Shown piece after piece: positions 60,347 to 62,982 of a stretch of DNA of 64,000 nucleotides. Position numbers and translations under genes: made by a program. The DNA comes from Caldisericia bacterium. GTDB taxonomy: Bacteria; Caldisericota; Caldisericia; JAAYUI01. Numbering within the stretch: the first letter of the stretch is position 1; the number at the start of each line of letters is the position of its first letter. The notes under the pieces were generated by a model. That model saw nothing but the letters and a program-made list of their open reading frames with translations, searched no databases and was not told where the DNA came from. Where the stretch lies: assembly GCA_017992555.1 (NCBI GenBank), contig JAGOOK010000003.1:15776-79775 (forward strand). The letters run 5' to 3'.

Positions 60347-62982
60347 TAGAAGCTGGATACGCAGGCACTGTGGCAAGCCGAGTGGCAGGCACTATGGCAA
60401 ACGCAGGCACTGTGGCATGCGGAATGGCATGCGGAATGGACACACGCCGAGTGGCAAGCATCATGCACGCAAGCGCTGTGGCAAGCCGAGTGGCAAGCGG
60501 AATGGCATGCATCATAAGCCTTGTTTGCGACATTTGGTATACCCAATCCCAATGCGTTTTCTACAGCCTCTGTAGTTTTTGAAACTGCGCCTTCAACAGA
60601 TGAAGCAAGGCTTGATGCAAAATTTTCCACCGAGGAAGCCGCTTTGTCTGCCCATCCGACGAAAACGGGCTGATACTGGTTCGGGAGCCGCCTCACGTTG
60701 TCATGGTATCTGTCAGAGAGAATGAGCCATGGAATCATCCTGCGGGTGTAGAGTTCATCAACAGGAGCAGCACCCCTTCTGTAGAGGTTCCATGAGTTTT
60801 CTATCTCGTCCTGGTATTTTTTCCTTGTGGCCTTGGGGTCGGCGTCCCATATCTTGCCGGACAGCGATTTGGCCACAGCATCAATAATTGTGGAGACTTT
60901 GTCTCTTGGAATTGTTCCCTCTGGAGTCACGCATTCAAGAAGCGCTTTTTCATAAGGTTCTGTTGCCAGTTTTGGATTGGTTAGCTCAAGCTGGATCGGT
61001 GTCTTGCCGACTATCGTTACAGCATTTTTTGTTGCAAGCTGGAGCACTATCAGCCCTATCACCTTGTCCTGCTGACCAAGATACATTGCAGCCTCGATGG
61101 CGTTCAGGTCGGCAATCTTTCCCTCTACAGAGAATGTTTCGAGCTCTATTTCTGGCGACTCGTACTTTGTGGCTTCCCTTATCTGCTTGAGTCTGGCCTT
61201 TCTCTTGCCTATCTTTGCCAGCCAGAAAAGCAGCAAAATTCCAAGGATGAGGAACGCAAAGAATATTATCGTGCCTGACCTGTCGTGCCAGAACCTTGCA
61301 AACAGGAACCCCTTCTTGAAGGTCCCTGCGGGGAAACTGACATACAAATTTTCAAGCCCCTCTGGCTTGATGGATGAAATCTCGGAGTAGATCTTGTTTC
61401 CTTCAGCCTTGAAGCTGTCGGAATTTGCATTGCCAGGGTAGTACACTTCGGCCGGTCCAAGGCCTTCAGGGTAGGTCAGTTCTATATAAAGTTTCTTTAT
61501 TGCAGCATTGCTGTTTCCAAACAGCAGACCAAGATCGAAGTATTGAAAATCCTCGTTCGTGTCAGTGTATGTGCCGTCTATTGCGGCACCATATATTTTA
61601 AAACCGTATCTGAACGTTTTTTTCTCGCCGTTTTTTGCGCCCCAGTAATAAGTCAGTTTCTGCCAGTCGAAAATATCGTGGTATGTCCTGAGGATGTATG
61701 TGCCAGGGGTGCCTGATTTGGAGAGAATAAAGTCCGTTTCATTTTCTTTTACAAAAGAGGCCTCCATCCACTGGTATTTGTCCAGTGTTATCGATATTTC
61801 GTTGCTCCAGTCGCCCTTGTTGCCCCTGAATAGCATGTCCGACTGGATTTCGTATGTGGCGGTCCCCTTTGAATCGATATCAATTTTTATCTTTGCCGAT
61901 TCTATTACCTGGCTGGTCACATTTTCAGCGTTATATGTGGCTTCTGGCGTTGCCATTATTACTGAATCGTTTTTGCCGATGATTTTTGCCTGGTAGTAGG
62001 CTGTCTCGCCGGGTTCCAGCGAGTCGCTATCGAGGAGAAAATATGTGTTGCTGTTGCTGGCCTTGATCAGCTCATTCTGGAATACTCTTGTTTTGTTACC
62101 AATTTTTCTGACAAGTTGCAGTTTCCCGCTACTTAGCCATTTTGGGTCAACATTCATGATGTTGACCGTTCTCGTGTCGTCATCGATTCCGGCAACAATG
62201 TTTATAAAAAAGTTTTTTTCTTCCTTTTCTGGGGGGTTTACTTGTGAAGTGAAATATTTTTCTGGAAGGAAAAGCTCGACATAGGCTTTTTCTTTAGCAG
62301 CGGCATTGTCTTTCTCTGCATGAATCGAAAGATAGTTTTTGCCCGTTCTTTCGTCCGGAGTTGGGAAGAAGATGAATCTGTCAAAATTTGACTTGTTCGA
62401 TTCGTTTGTTTGCAGTTCTGTTGCGTCTACTACGGCGTCTGTGACCTGTTCCGGCTTGTTAATGTTGCTGGAGAGCTCAATTGGAAGGACAATCTGGACA
62501 ATGATCTTTTCGATTGGCACGCTCCACTGGATTGGTGCCCAGCCAAAGTCCCTTGTCCCTTGCTTGGAATTGCCGGTAATATCGCGATCAATTGCGTATT
62601 CCCAATGTAAGGTGTATGTTTTTCCCGGAACAGTTTCAGAACCAAATTCTGCCTTATAAAAATTATCCCCCAGGGGAACAAGCGAAGCAGGGATTTTTTG
62701 GCTCCCTTCGAGGAGGTATTGGTCTTTTATCCTGTGTCCGCTGTCGAAAGGCCCAAGCTTGTTGATGACGTCCCTGCTCTCGGTCTCCAGGAACGTGAGG
62801 TCCTGCTTGACTGTTGCAGTGCCATCAGATTGAAGAACAAAGTAGCTCTTGAATTCTTTTAGGTCAGGGGCCCCAGCTGCTTTTAATGAGAGCAAGGGAA
62901 ACTGTAATAAAAAAAGAAAGAACAAGGCGAGCGAAATGGCCCGCCTTGTTTTGTCACTTCTTGCCACGAGTTGCGATCTCAT
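60346..62982 (-). CDS. DUF2207-like single-pass membrane protein with cytoplasmic C-terminal (A-C-H-S)n Cys/His repeat tail
   Basis: 878 aa. Signal peptide, then a large extracytoplasmic beta-rich part with a DUF2207-like N-domain ([14 protein letters not shown]). TM [18 protein letters not shown] followed by [10 protein letters not shown]. Cytoplasmic region [11 protein letters not shown]...LQLATKNAV, and a tail ending ...[14 protein letters not shown]. Confidence 0.8.
   Translation of the reverse strand: [878 protein letters not shown]
60349..60510 (-). repeat. Coding tetrapeptide repeat: ACHS x3, [18 protein letters not shown] x2, [10 protein letters not shown] x2, ACVSSF
   Basis: Direct translation of the minus strand gives 13 Cys at CXXX spacing and 11 His. 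The units use different synonymous codons. Confidence 0.9.

What the first reader, a model, noticed from the sequence alone, without database searches (positions are those of the whole stretch)
60349..60510. The (A-C-H-S)n tail is maintained at protein level: synonymous codons differ between units
SEEN: hand translation of the minus strand gives twelve units. They read gca tgc cat tcc / gct tgc cac tcg / gct tgc cac agc / gct tgc gtg cat gat / gct tgc cac tcg / gcg tgt gtc cat tcc / gca tgc cat tcc / gca tgc cac agt / gcc tgc gtt / tgc cat agt / gcc tgc cac tcg / gct tgc cac agt, then gcc tgc gta tcc agc ttc taa. Ser in the repeat is encoded by both codon families (TCC, TCG, AGC, AGT). Ala uses all four GCN codons, and His uses both CAT and CAC. 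INFERENCE: the periodicity is therefore not a recent DNA slippage expansion and is not better explained by the two alternative-frame ORFs the track lists across the same DNA. Selection appears to act on Cys every fourth residue, followed by His-Ser. The Cys/His density (13 Cys and 11 His in 54 aa) would also suit metal or Fe-S binding, which is the main alternative to enzymatic crosslinking.
Basis: seen in the sequence. Interest (0 to 1): 0.75.

Follow-up and report, generated by a model that had tools for sequence, protein, structure and literature searches.

The report
Cysteine-repeat protein tail with modifying enzyme
A large membrane protein ends in a 54-residue (Ala-Cys-His-Ser)n tail that is kept almost letter-perfect at the protein level across distant bacteria and archaea; its gene is nearly always followed by a radical-SAM peptide-modifying enzyme, which points to an undescribed system that chemically modifies a protein's own tail.

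Summary
Tails from other organisms are 100% identical over 56 aa despite 43-45 nucleotide differences, while the adjacent enzymes are only about 47-50% identical. Only the coding frame shows purifying selection; the other five frames contain stops in orthologues.

The tail is the extreme C-terminus of a single-pass, DUF2207-like membrane protein, and I predict it lies in the cytoplasm. Its stop codon overlaps the start (TAATG) of a radical-SAM/SPASM enzyme with an N-terminal peptide-recognition domain.

The pairing holds in both directions:
- 75 of 78 evaluable enzyme-seeded loci carry a Cys-repeat tail.
- 88 of 99 tail-seeded loci carry the enzyme.

It spans many bacterial phyla and Asgard and Bathy archaea. 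A sister form has (Cys-Ala)n tails, and one hybrid tail carries both forms.

Neither Pfam nor NCBIfam has a model for this system, and I found no paper on it.

Best reading: the tail is a protein-embedded, RiPP-like substrate whose in-register cysteines the enzyme modifies. The chemistry is unproven; thioether cross-links are the most likely. Plain metal binding by an unmodified tail is not excluded.

The parts
60349..60510 (-). Cys-repeat tail (aa 825-878): ACHS x3, [18 protein letters not shown] x2, [10 protein letters not shown] x2, ACVSSF. This is the proposed core (substrate) region.
   Evidence: for sequence and codons. for protein-level conservation. In all but one of the 120 tail-seeded loci it sits at the extreme C-terminus of its ORF.
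60346..62982 (-). Tail-bearing 878-aa protein. It has a signal peptide (aa 1-36, 62875..62982), a variable ectodomain with a weak DUF2207 N-terminal match, one transmembrane helix, a cytoplasmic domain and the tail.
   Evidence: ORF. (PF09972, 27.0 bits against a gathering score of 24.4). (hydropathy peaks at aa 14-36 and 567-593); only aa ~548-878 are conserved across loci.
61201..61269 (-). Single transmembrane helix (aa 572-594) followed by [12 protein letters not shown]. The positive-inside rule places the C-terminal domain and the tail in the cytoplasm.
   Evidence: The topology is inferred, not measured.
60544..60630 (-). Candidate leader-like amphipathic segment [29 protein letters not shown] (aa 785-813), 11 residues upstream of the tail. 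It may be the docking site for the enzyme's recognition domain.
   Evidence: an (E/D)xFA(S/N)...(V/I)E... segment aligns in the closest ACHS-type relatives and in CA-type relatives, but not in a second ACHS subgroup. Its function is inference only.
60344..60348 (-). TAATG stop/start overlap. The TAA of the tail gene shares one base with the ATG of the radical-SAM gene, which suggests translational coupling.
   Evidence: The same TAATG or TGATG junction occurs in L083 and L084.
58949..60346 (-). Radical-SAM/SPASM enzyme of 465 aa. It has an N-terminal RRE-like domain (aa 1-91, 60074..60346), a CQNKCVFC cluster motif (aa 124-131, 59954..59977) and a SPASM Cys set (aa 338-420, 59087..59335).
   Evidence: PF04055 at 91.7 bits, PF13186 at 35.2 bits; no NCBIfam model reaches its cut-off. 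(invariant C124, C128, C131, C338, C352, C370, C407, C410, C416, C420). (AF2 pLDDT 83.8; three strands plus three helices at the N-terminus). (best PDB folds are SkfB, SuiB and CteB).
57799..58959 (-). 386-aa coiled-coil protein that overlaps the radical-SAM gene by 11 nt. It is a conserved accessory gene only in the ACHS subgroup closest to the window.
   Evidence: cluster 6: 18 loci, always directly after the radical-SAM gene. No Pfam or NCBIfam family.
57290..57811 (-). 173-aa protein with two N-terminal hydrophobic helices and a C-terminal CxxC-x12-CxxC zinc ribbon (57323..57385). Relatives accompany both tail types.
   Evidence: Cluster 7 (15 loci) lies downstream in ACHS-type loci. Cluster 3 (31 loci; same two-helix plus zinc-ribbon layout) lies directly upstream of the tail gene in CA-type loci.

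Best explanation
The (ACHS)n tail is the substrate ("core") region of a protein-embedded, RiPP-like modification system.

Proposed sequence of events:
1. The 878-aa protein inserts in the membrane with its ectodomain outside and its C-terminal about 285 residues, ending in the tail, in the cytoplasm.
2. The co-translated radical-SAM/SPASM enzyme docks through its N-terminal recognition (RRE) domain on a segment just upstream of the tail.
3. The enzyme works along the repeat and modifies the in-register cysteines, using 5'-deoxyadenosyl-radical chemistry and its auxiliary Fe-S clusters.
4. No protease or exporter is conserved nearby, so the modified tail most likely stays attached to the membrane protein.

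The most likely chemistry is one small intramolecular thioether ring per repeat unit, linking Cys sulfur to a carbon of a neighbouring residue. This is what PapB does at six CX3D/E motifs.

What is shown: protein-level selection, near-obligate gene linkage in both directions, co-diversification of tail type with enzyme clade, and the enzyme's architecture.

What is inferred: the topology, that the tail is the substrate, that Cys is the target, the thioether chemistry (about 0.35 given that the tail is the substrate), and retention on the protein.
For: 1. Purifying selection acts on the peptide only. See (56/56 aa identical with 43-45 nt differences).
2. The tail is far better conserved than its host protein. 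It is about 95% identical, against 41-45% over aa ~576-878 as a whole and no detectable similarity in most ectodomains.
3. Forward linkage. A genome scan seeded with the enzyme gave 80 loci. Of these, 74 match a Cys-repeat pattern and L073 also carries a tail. Two of the rest have no upstream sequence. That makes about 75 of 78 evaluable loci with a tail. 66 of 71 full-length tail genes lie directly upstream on the same strand.
4. Reverse linkage. A metagenome scan seeded only with the tail DNA pattern gave 120 loci. Of 99 with at least 900 nt downstream, 76 have the enzyme immediately downstream and 12 have it elsewhere in the locus.
5. Tail type tracks enzyme clade. ACHS tails go with enzymes at least 36% identical to the window's. 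(CA)n tails go with enzymes 28-34% identical. A hybrid tail...[24 protein letters not shown], exists in a Promethearchaeota MAG.
6. The enzyme has the architecture of a peptide maturase: CX3CX2C, a full SPASM Cys set and an RRE-like N-terminus. PF05402 (PqqD) is precomputed on most homologues. The nearest sequence and fold matches in the PDB are PqqE, SkfB, SuiB and CteB.
7. The stop and start codons overlap.
8. Precedent. PapB makes thioethers at six periodic Cys-X3-Asp/Glu motifs (PMC9413430). NCBIfam holds a 'Cys-Xaa-Xaa-Xaa repeat radical SAM target protein' family.
Against: - There is no biochemical evidence. Nothing here shows that any residue is modified.
- The chemistry cannot be read from sequence. 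The enzyme sits roughly equidistant from AhbD, NirJ2, PqqE, the sactisynthases and others, at 100-138 bits and all far below their family cut-offs.
- (CA)n tails offer only Ala, Gly, Val and Ser as cross-link acceptors. A single shared chemistry across both tail types is therefore not obviously a PapB-like Cys-to-Asp link.
- An 878-aa membrane protein is an atypical substrate for an RRE-type maturase.
- 11 of 99 tail-seeded loci show no enzyme within the available flank, and 3 enzyme-seeded loci (L004, L050, L075) show no tail.
- The AF2 model of the tail region is low-confidence (pLDDT below 45), so it gives no structural support.
Confidence: 0.6

Rival explanations
1. Same substrate relationship, different chemistry. 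The enzyme converts the cysteines into metal-chelating heterocycles (thiooxazole-type, as reported for the radical-SAM enzyme SbtM and for MNIO-made bufferins) or other oxidised Cys derivatives. The result would be a membrane-tethered cytoplasmic metal (Cu/Zn/Fe) buffer or sensor.
For: - NCBIfam names a radical-SAM/SPASM family 'thio(seleno)oxazole modification radical SAM maturase SbtM'. Thiooxazole-bearing bufferins and the SbtM product are cited in PMC12538549.
- Bufferins chelate copper (PMC12452194).
- The same paper proposes that membrane proteins with Cys-rich C-terminal tails (TIGR04222) are substrates of Cys-modifying MNIO enzymes. That is a close architectural parallel.
- Small residues flank every Cys in both tail types, and heterocyclisation needs no acceptor side chain, so this fits (CA)n as well as (ACHS)n.
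Against: - The window enzyme does not list SbtM among its 25 best NCBIfam matches. A CA-type enzyme matches SbtM only through the SPASM domain (63.9 bits against a cut-off of 350).
- No metal transporter or metal regulator is conserved in the neighbourhood.
- There is no experimental data.
Confidence: 0.15
2. The tail is not modified. It is a Cys/His (or all-Cys) metal- or Fe-S-binding segment in its own right, and the neighbouring radical-SAM enzyme acts on something else or uses the tail as a cluster or sulfur donor or scaffold.
For: - 13 Cys and 11 His in 54 aa.
- CX3C spacing would line up thiols along one face of a helix.
- Cys-rich or Gly-rich C-terminal tails also occur in related membrane-protein families without any maturase. 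About a third of genomes with TIGR04222 genes lack MNIO (PMC12452194).
- 11 of 99 tail loci show no enzyme in the flank.
Against: - His is dispensable in the sister (CA)n clade.
- Reciprocal linkage of about 90% or more, stop/start overlap and an RRE-bearing maturase architecture are the signature of an enzyme-substrate pair.
- Metal-binding tails usually tolerate far more sequence drift than 56/56 identity across enzymes that are only about 47-50% identical.
Confidence: 0.15
3. The tail is a classical RiPP precursor fused to a carrier. After modification it is cleaved off and released or exported as a free Cys-rich peptide natural product.
For: The enzyme resembles classical RiPP maturases. 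The invariant Y-D or S-D just before the first ACHS unit could mark a processing site.
Against: - No peptidase or ABC exporter is conserved in any of the three locus types.
- The conserved partners are membrane, coiled-coil and zinc-ribbon proteins and, in CA-type loci, a methyltransferase.
- The cytoplasmic domain upstream of the tail is itself conserved across phyla, which is unlike a disposable carrier.
Confidence: 0.07
4. The periodicity is a DNA-level microsatellite-like expansion or low-complexity filler with no selected peptide function, possibly better read in another frame.
For: Unit number differs among distant relatives (3 to about 14 Cys). Some database gene calls translate the same DNA in a shifted frame ('PATRPA...' products such as P0144, P0206 and P0208).
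Against: - Zero amino-acid changes against 43-45 nucleotide changes.
- pN/pS is 0.17 in the coding frame only, and every other frame has stops.
- Both Ser codon families occur at every conserved Ser column.
- Unit-to-unit nucleotide identity is at the floor set by the peptide.
Confidence: 0.01

Closest known systems
PapB/PapA (freyrasin) and other ranthipeptide or sactipeptide systems (CteB, SkfB, NxxcB)
   Same: A radical-SAM/SPASM (or twitch) enzyme with an N-terminal RRE acts on a Cys-rich substrate. PapB installs one thioether per unit at six periodic Cys-X3-Asp/Glu motifs (PMC9413430). SkfB and CteB are among the best fold matches of the window enzyme.
   Different: - Those substrates are short leader-core peptides that are cleaved and exported. 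Here the 'core' is the C-terminus of a 550-950-aa membrane protein, and no protease or exporter is conserved.
- The repeat unit is A-C-H-S (or C-A), and most units have no acidic acceptor.
- The enzyme is not a member of any of those families. StsB scores 107.5 bits against a cut-off of 625, and SkfB 73.3 against 300.
Curated but uncharacterised 'Cys-repeat radical-SAM target' families of NCBIfam/TIGRFAMs: Cys-Xaa-Xaa-Xaa repeat target (TIGR04117), ACGX system (TIGR04340 enzyme), FibroRumin, SCIFF
   Same: A tandem CxxxCxxxC... peptide is encoded next to a radical-SAM/SPASM enzyme, and the pairing was predicted bioinformatically. The period-4 Cys register is the same as in CXXX and ACGX repeats.
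   Different: - The tail scores 8.7 bits (E = 1.8) on TIGR04117 against a cut-off of 50.
- The enzyme scores 86.9 bits on rSAM_ACGX against a cut-off of 400.
- Those targets are free-standing small peptides. My account of them as small leader-plus-repeat peptides is from memory of the family descriptions, not tested here.
TIGR04222 membrane proteins with C-terminal Cys-rich low-complexity segments next to MNIO (DUF692) enzymes
   Same: A bona fide multi-hundred-residue membrane protein has a Cys-studded C-terminal tail proposed as the substrate of a RiPP-type Cys-modifying enzyme encoded next to it. As here, the case is only bioinformatic (PMC12452194).
   Different: - The enzyme superfamily differs: MNIO is a non-haem iron enzyme, this is radical SAM.
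- Those tails are irregular Ser/Gly-rich segments predicted to be periplasmic. This one is a strict periodic repeat predicted to be cytoplasmic.
- The window protein has no TIGR04222 match.
- The MNIO linkage is much looser: a third of genomes with TIGR04222 genes lack MNIO.
DUF2207 membrane proteins (for example S. mutans SMU.243), often paired with LemA
   Same: There is a weak N-terminal domain match (PF09972, 27.0 bits). A relative gives a weak DUF2207_C match (21.1 bits against 33). The overall layout also agrees: signal peptide, ectodomain, membrane span, then a low-complexity C-terminus.
   Different: Typical DUF2207 proteins have no radical-SAM neighbour. No paper mentions DUF2207 together with radical SAM. 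Only the membrane-proximal cytoplasmic region is conserved in the present family.
His-Xaa-Ser (Hxs) repeat system
   Same: A His/Ser-containing tandem repeat target is encoded with radical-SAM maturases.
   Different: The repeat here is C-H-S-A, not H-x-S. HxsC scores 87.4 bits against a cut-off of 267.9. His and Ser are absent from the sister (CA)n clade.

Membership tests
RRE-dependent radical-SAM/SPASM peptide maturases (functional class) | CX3CX2C radical-SAM cluster motif in a Radical_SAM domain | tested here: met
   CQNKCVFC at aa 124-131. C124, C128 and C131 are invariant in 63 homologues. PF04055 scores 91.7 bits.
RRE-dependent radical-SAM/SPASM peptide maturases (functional class) | C-terminal SPASM domain with the 7-Cys auxiliary-cluster set | tested here: met
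   PF13186 scores 35.2 bits against a gathering score of 21.5. C338, C352, C370, C407, C410, C416 and C420 are invariant.
RRE-dependent radical-SAM/SPASM peptide maturases (functional class) | N-terminal PqqD-like RiPP recognition element | tested here: met
   The AF2 model shows three strands then three helices at aa 19-91 with pLDDT about 80-95. PF05402 is precomputed on most homologues. Foldseek alignments to SkfB, SuiB and CteB span 396-475 columns, so they include the N-terminal domain. PF05402 itself did not pass E = 0.01 on the window protein.
RRE-dependent radical-SAM/SPASM peptide maturases (functional class) | Adjacent, co-conserved Cys-containing substrate gene | tested here: met
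   About 75 of 78 evaluable enzyme-seeded loci carry a tail, and 88 of 99 tail-seeded loci carry the enzyme.
Classical RiPP biosynthetic cluster | Short precursor (leader plus core) with a dedicated protease and/or exporter | tested here: not met
   The substrate is a 550-950-aa membrane protein. No peptidase or transporter cluster is conserved among 81 loci.
Any named NCBIfam radical-SAM maturase family (StsB, SkfB, PqqE, MftC, ScmE/F, GeoRSP, WgkB, HxsC, ACGX, AlbA, SbtM) | Score at or above the curated family cut-off | tested here: not met
   The best match is AhbD at 137.7 bits against a cut-off of 500. Every listed family is far below its cut-off, for the window enzyme and for two CA-type enzymes.
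Cys-Xaa-Xaa-Xaa repeat radical-SAM target protein (TIGR04117) | Profile match at or above the cut-off (50 bits) | tested here: not met
   8.7 bits, E = 1.8. The period-4 Cys register is shared, but the sequence family is not.
DUF2207 (Pfam PF09972 / PF20990) | N-terminal domain match at or above the gathering score | tested here: met
   PF09972 scores 27.0 bits against 24.4 at aa 43-193. This is marginal. Four of the five relatives tested gave no Pfam match, and L011 matched only DUF2207_C, below threshold.
TIGR04222 / MNIO substrate proteins | TIGR04222 domain and a neighbouring MNIO (DUF692) gene | tested here: not met
   No NCBIfam match for the tail protein. No MNIO-like cluster among the conserved neighbours.
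Thioether-forming (sacti/ranthi) synthases | Demonstrated Cys-S to carbon cross-link in the product | not testable with these tools
   This needs mass spectrometry or NMR of the co-expressed substrate.

The most novel reading that the evidence does not exclude
A pan-domain (bacteria, Asgard and Bathy archaea), previously undescribed class of protein-embedded radical-SAM modification. A membrane protein's cytoplasmic poly-Cys repeat tail would be converted into a regular ladder of cross-links or heterocycles that stays on the protein. It would then act as a built-in cofactor, for example a metal or Fe-S binding or redox-active strip at the inner face of the membrane, rather than as a secreted natural product. 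The chemistry could itself be new, because it must serve both C-H-S-A and C-A repeats.
Probability: 0.3. Interest if true: 0.85.

Novelty: new variant of a known kind. Interest (0 to 1): 0.62.

Why it matters
Radical-SAM/SPASM maturases are known almost entirely from short, secreted peptide natural products. A few act on proteins, such as sulfatase maturation and, from my own knowledge of the field, the QhpC subunit of an amine dehydrogenase.

Here a maturase-like enzyme is locked to the C-terminal tail of a large membrane protein. The tail is conserved to the residue between organisms whose enzymes are only about half identical. The system occurs from Chloroflexota, Myxococcota and Spirochaetota to Thor-, Heimdall- and Bathyarchaeia.

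That degree of constraint on a 4-residue repeat implies a precise chemical or structural product. Neither Pfam nor NCBIfam has a model for it, and I found no paper describing it.

It is directly testable by co-expression and mass spectrometry. One cultured host exists: Desulfobulbus alkaliphilus DSM 24258. A positive result would extend RiPP-type chemistry to integral membrane proteins and could reveal a new protein-derived cofactor or a new cysteine modification.

Tried and rejected
1. The word-indexed protein searches with the full tail protein and with its cytoplasmic domain found only 2 and 1 relatives. The index is poorly suited to this divergent, low-complexity protein. Relatives came instead from enzyme-seeded and DNA-pattern-seeded locus scans and from the exhaustive phmmer run.
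2. AF2 on the C-terminal 304 residues with a 2-sequence alignment gave pLDDT 52.7, and below 45 over the tail. Its helical prediction for the tail is not usable. Only a winged-helix-like unit at about aa 625-710 reaches pLDDT 70-90.
3. Literature searches found nothing on this system. I searched for the literal tail strings, for DUF2207 together with radical SAM, for ACGX and CXXX repeats, and for a combination of SPASM, transmembrane and cysteine-rich terms. The ovothiol paper that mentions DUF2207 concludes the gene is unrelated to thiohistidine chemistry.
4. The PADLOC scan gave only generic radical-SAM (viperin-like) and coiled-coil (LmuB-like) noise. I rejected a defence-system reading.
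5. The PP2C phosphatase, the 1225-aa Ser/Thr kinase with AAA and TPR domains, and the GcvH/GcvP genes that flank the cassette are syntenic only in the closest relatives. I did not count them as parts of the system.
6. The 66-nt higher-order period from Tandem Repeats Finder (80% matches) looked like a recent block duplication. It is no better than the roughly 76% identity that the repeated peptide alone imposes.
7. Counting synonymous differences among the window's own 'ACHS' units is circular, because the units were selected by their translation. I rely on the orthologue comparisons instead.

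
Full report
**1. The observation**

The minus strand of 60349..60510 encodes the last 54 residues (aa 825-878) of an 878-aa ORF, 60346..62982. The sequence is [54 protein letters not shown].
- Ala uses all four GCN codons (3, 5, 1 and 3 times).
- His uses CAT 5 times and CAC 6 times.
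- Ser uses TCC, TCG, AGC and AGT.
- Cys is TGC 12 times and TGT once.

The tail holds 13 of the protein's 14 Cys and 11 of its 17 His.

Only 2 of 28 pairs of canonical ACHS units are identical in DNA, and unit-to-unit nucleotide identity is about 76%. Tandem Repeats Finder reports only weak 12-nt arrays plus a 66-nt period at 80% matches. That is essentially the identity the repeated peptide alone imposes. The DNA therefore carries no signature of a recent slippage expansion.

**2. Is the repeat maintained at the protein level?**

*Seven gap-free orthologous tails (window plus six loci from other genomes).*
- Mean nucleotide identity is about 74% and amino-acid identity is 94%.
- 563 of 880 pairwise differences fall at third codon positions.
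- In the coding frame pS = 0.76 and pN = 0.13, giving a ratio of 0.17. The pN is inflated because TCN-to-AGY Ser switches are counted as non-synonymous paths.
- All five other frames contain stop codons in orthologues (2-13 stops across the 7 sequences). Four have pN/pS of 1.8-2.4.
- The fifth (pN/pS 0.36, 12 stops) is the antisense frame, which shares third codon positions with the coding frame.

*Codon-level evidence.*
- All nine invariant Ser columns use both codon families among orthologues.
- Four metagenome loci (L108, L142, L167, L169) encode a tail identical to the window's over 56 of 56 residues with 43-45 nucleotide differences. For the two of these whose enzyme lies within the fetched flank (L167, L169), it is only about 47-50% identical to the window's.
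- The close relative L110 (enzyme 97% identical) has 18 nucleotide differences and no amino-acid change.

*Comparison with the host protein.*
- The host protein as a whole is only 41-45% identical over aa ~576-878 in the nearest genome hits.
- Most ectodomains are not alignable.

**3. What the tail belongs to**

The host protein has these parts:
- a signal peptide (aa 1-36);
- a variable ectodomain with a marginal DUF2207 N-terminal match (PF09972, 27.0 bits against 24.4);
- one hydrophobic helix (aa 572-594) followed by a strongly basic stretch;
- about 230 residues of cytoplasmic domain;
- the tail.

By the positive-inside rule the tail lies in the cytoplasm. This is inferred, not measured.

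The TAA stop overlaps the ATG (TAATG) of a 465-aa radical-SAM/SPASM gene, 58949..60346.
- That enzyme has CQNKCVFC at aa 124-131 and a complete set of invariant SPASM cysteines.
- In an AF2 model with mean pLDDT 83.8 it has an N-terminal unit of three strands plus three helices, typical of PqqD-like RiPP recognition elements.
- PF05402 is precomputed on most of its homologues.
- Its best solved relatives are PqqE, SkfB and CteB by sequence, and SkfB, SuiB and CteB by fold, followed by anSME.
- No NCBIfam family is reached. The best is AhbD at 137.7 bits against a cut-off of 500.

Two further genes overlap in series:
- a 386-aa coiled-coil protein (57799..58959);
- a 173-aa protein with two hydrophobic helices and a CxxC-x12-CxxC zinc ribbon (57290..57811).

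**4. Linkage, tested in both directions**

*Enzyme-seeded.* A profile of the enzyme retrieved 80 loci from one-genome-per-species contigs.
- 74 carry a tail that matches a Cys-repeat pattern, and L073 also carries one.
- Two others start at the enzyme gene, so they cannot be evaluated.
- That makes about 75 of 78 evaluable loci with a tail.
- 66 of 71 full-length tail genes lie directly upstream on the same strand.

*Tail-seeded.* A degenerate DNA pattern for [12 protein letters not shown], which ignores the enzyme, retrieved 120 metagenome loci.
- In every case but one spurious match (L099), the pattern lies in frame at the extreme C-terminus of an ORF.
- Of 99 loci with at least 900 nt downstream, 76 have the enzyme immediately downstream.
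- 12 have it elsewhere in the locus. These include the divergent arrangement seen in the genome-derived Thorarchaeota loci.
- 11 show none within the available flank.

*Family size.* An exhaustive phmmer search of 1.84 billion cluster representatives found only 132 relatives of the cytoplasmic domain plus tail at E = 0.001 or better. Most of those without a recognisable tail look like fragments or frame-shifted gene calls, judging from their C-termini. The family is therefore rare but phylogenetically very broad.

**5. Diversity of the family**

Three locus types emerge.
- **Type A.** The tail ends ...ACVS-x-F. The 386-aa coiled-coil protein and the zinc-ribbon protein lie downstream. Hosts: Chloroflexota, Sumerlaeota, Spirochaetota and Myxococcota.
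- **Type B.** The tail ends ...[11 protein letters not shown][HR]. A different ~330-aa membrane protein lies downstream. Hosts: Planctomycetota, Omnitrophota, Desulfobulbus alkaliphilus DSM 24258, WOR-3 and others. Thorarchaeota carry a similar tail (ending VSGGFR) with the genes in divergent orientation, and they lack that downstream gene.
- **Type C.** The tails are (Cys-Ala)n, such as [19 protein letters not shown] or [27 protein letters not shown]. The zinc-ribbon protein lies upstream, and a class-I methyltransferase often lies downstream (PF08241). Hosts: Anaerolineaceae, Bathyarchaeia and Heimdallarchaeota. Their enzymes are 28-34% identical to the window's.

Other points:
- Tail type partitions cleanly with enzyme similarity.
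- A Promethearchaeota protein carries a hybrid tail...[24 protein letters not shown].
- Unit number ranges from 3 Cys ([16 protein letters not shown]) to about 14.
- The in-register Cys are invariant in the seven-tail alignment. The one out-of-register Cys of the window (the ACV-C-HS junction) is Ser in the syntenic relative L083.
- A segment of the form (E/D)xFA(S/N)...(V/I)E, at window aa 785-813, aligns upstream of the tail in types A and C. It is a candidate docking site for the recognition domain. This is inference.

**6. Mechanism**

*What is shown:*
- strong purifying selection on the peptide;
- near-obligate reciprocal linkage and co-diversification with an RRE-bearing radical-SAM/SPASM enzyme;
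- stop/start overlap;
- no conserved protease or exporter.

*What I infer.* The tail is the enzyme's substrate, the regularly spaced Cys are the targets, and the product remains on the membrane protein.

*Most likely chemistry.* One small thioether ring per unit, because:
- the characterised RRE-SPASM enzymes that act on Cys-rich substrates make Cys-S-to-carbon links;
- PapB does so at six periodic CX3D/E motifs (PMC9413430);
- SkfB and CteB are among the closest folds.

*Serious alternatives.*
- Cys could be converted to thiooxazole-type ligands. This is reported for the radical-SAM enzyme SbtM and for MNIO-made copper-binding bufferins.
- The unmodified Cys/His strip could bind metal or Fe-S directly.
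- Sequence alone cannot separate these.
- His cannot be essential for the family-wide chemistry, because type C tails contain little or no His.

**7. Comparison with what is known**

- *Functional analogues.* Ranthipeptide and sactipeptide systems, and the curated but uncharacterised 'Cys-Xaa-Xaa-Xaa repeat radical SAM target' and ACGX families. The tail scores 8.7 bits against a cut-off of 50 on the first. The enzyme scores 86.9 bits against 400 on the ACGX enzyme model. It is therefore not a member of either.
- *Closest architectural parallel.* The proposal that TIGR04222 membrane proteins with Cys-rich C-terminal tails are substrates of neighbouring MNIO enzymes (PMC12452194). That involves a different enzyme superfamily, irregular tails predicted to be periplasmic, and much looser linkage.
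- *Literature.* I found no paper containing the tail strings, or DUF2207 together with radical SAM.
- *Databases.* The Promethearchaeota example is annotated 'hypothetical protein'.

I classify the finding as a new variant of a known kind. It is a radical-SAM maturase with a Cys-repeat target, but the target is embedded as the tail of a conserved membrane protein, and the enzyme belongs to a family that no NCBIfam model captures.

**8. Verdict**

- The system is real, widespread and apparently undescribed, and it is directly testable.
- Interest is 0.62. It is not higher because the general logic (SPASM enzyme plus Cys-repeat target) is established and the chemistry and biological role remain unknown.
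- The stronger reading is a retained, protein-derived poly-Cys cofactor with possibly new chemistry. It is not excluded; I give it a probability of about 0.3.

Noticed in passing
window 62954..64000 and beyond; L001, L083, L084: Directly upstream of the cassette lie three GcvH paralogues. One (62954..63373) overlaps the tail gene's start by 29 nt on the same strand. A split glycine dehydrogenase (GcvPA/PB) lies beyond them. This arrangement is syntenic in the closest relatives (enzyme 67-72% identical) but absent from all more distant loci.
   Followed up: partly
window 52744..57293: A PP2C phosphatase (about 56502..57293, plus strand, convergent with the zinc-ribbon gene) and a 1225-aa Ser/Thr kinase with AAA_16 and TPR (MalT-like) domains (52744..56421, minus strand) flank the cassette. 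They are syntenic only in close relatives (L083, L084). One distant locus (L022) has a weak kinase match.
   Followed up: partly
P0182 (MHA1731569.1, Promethearchaeota MAG): A hybrid tail joins both repeat types: ...[45 protein letters not shown]. It links the (ACHS)n and (CA)n forms evolutionarily.
   Followed up: partly
P0144, P0206, P0208, P0242: Several database proteins end in 'PATRPATRPA...'-type sequence, which is the +1 frame of ACHS-coding DNA. Assemblies or gene callers apparently frame-shift inside these tails, so automated annotation under-reports them.
   Followed up: no
L022:492-611 (+), about 5.4 kb upstream of the enzyme gene: This locus keeps the enzyme, coiled-coil and zinc-ribbon genes but has no full tail gene next to them. 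A short ORF ending ...[15 protein letters not shown] lies 5.4 kb upstream. It may be a remnant or a displaced tail gene.
   Followed up: no
L179: One tail continues past ACVS into a Gly/Ser-rich extension (...[23 protein letters not shown]). From my recollection, not checked here, this resembles the Gly-rich C-termini of ordinary DUF2207 proteins. It hints that the Cys repeat arose inside such a low-complexity tail.
   Followed up: no
L122, L123, L133, L161: A subgroup with perfectly regular tails (YEH[AS]ACHS x10, then ACVSGGSH or ACVSGGGH) has the enzyme about 1.1 kb further downstream. This implies an extra gene inserted between substrate and enzyme. I did not examine it.
   Followed up: no
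CA-type loci, e.g. L060:3959-4714: A class-I SAM methyltransferase (PF08241, 76.5 bits) recurs within about 1.2 kb downstream of the enzyme in 19 (CA)n-type loci but not in ACHS-type loci. It may add a second modification.
   Followed up: partly
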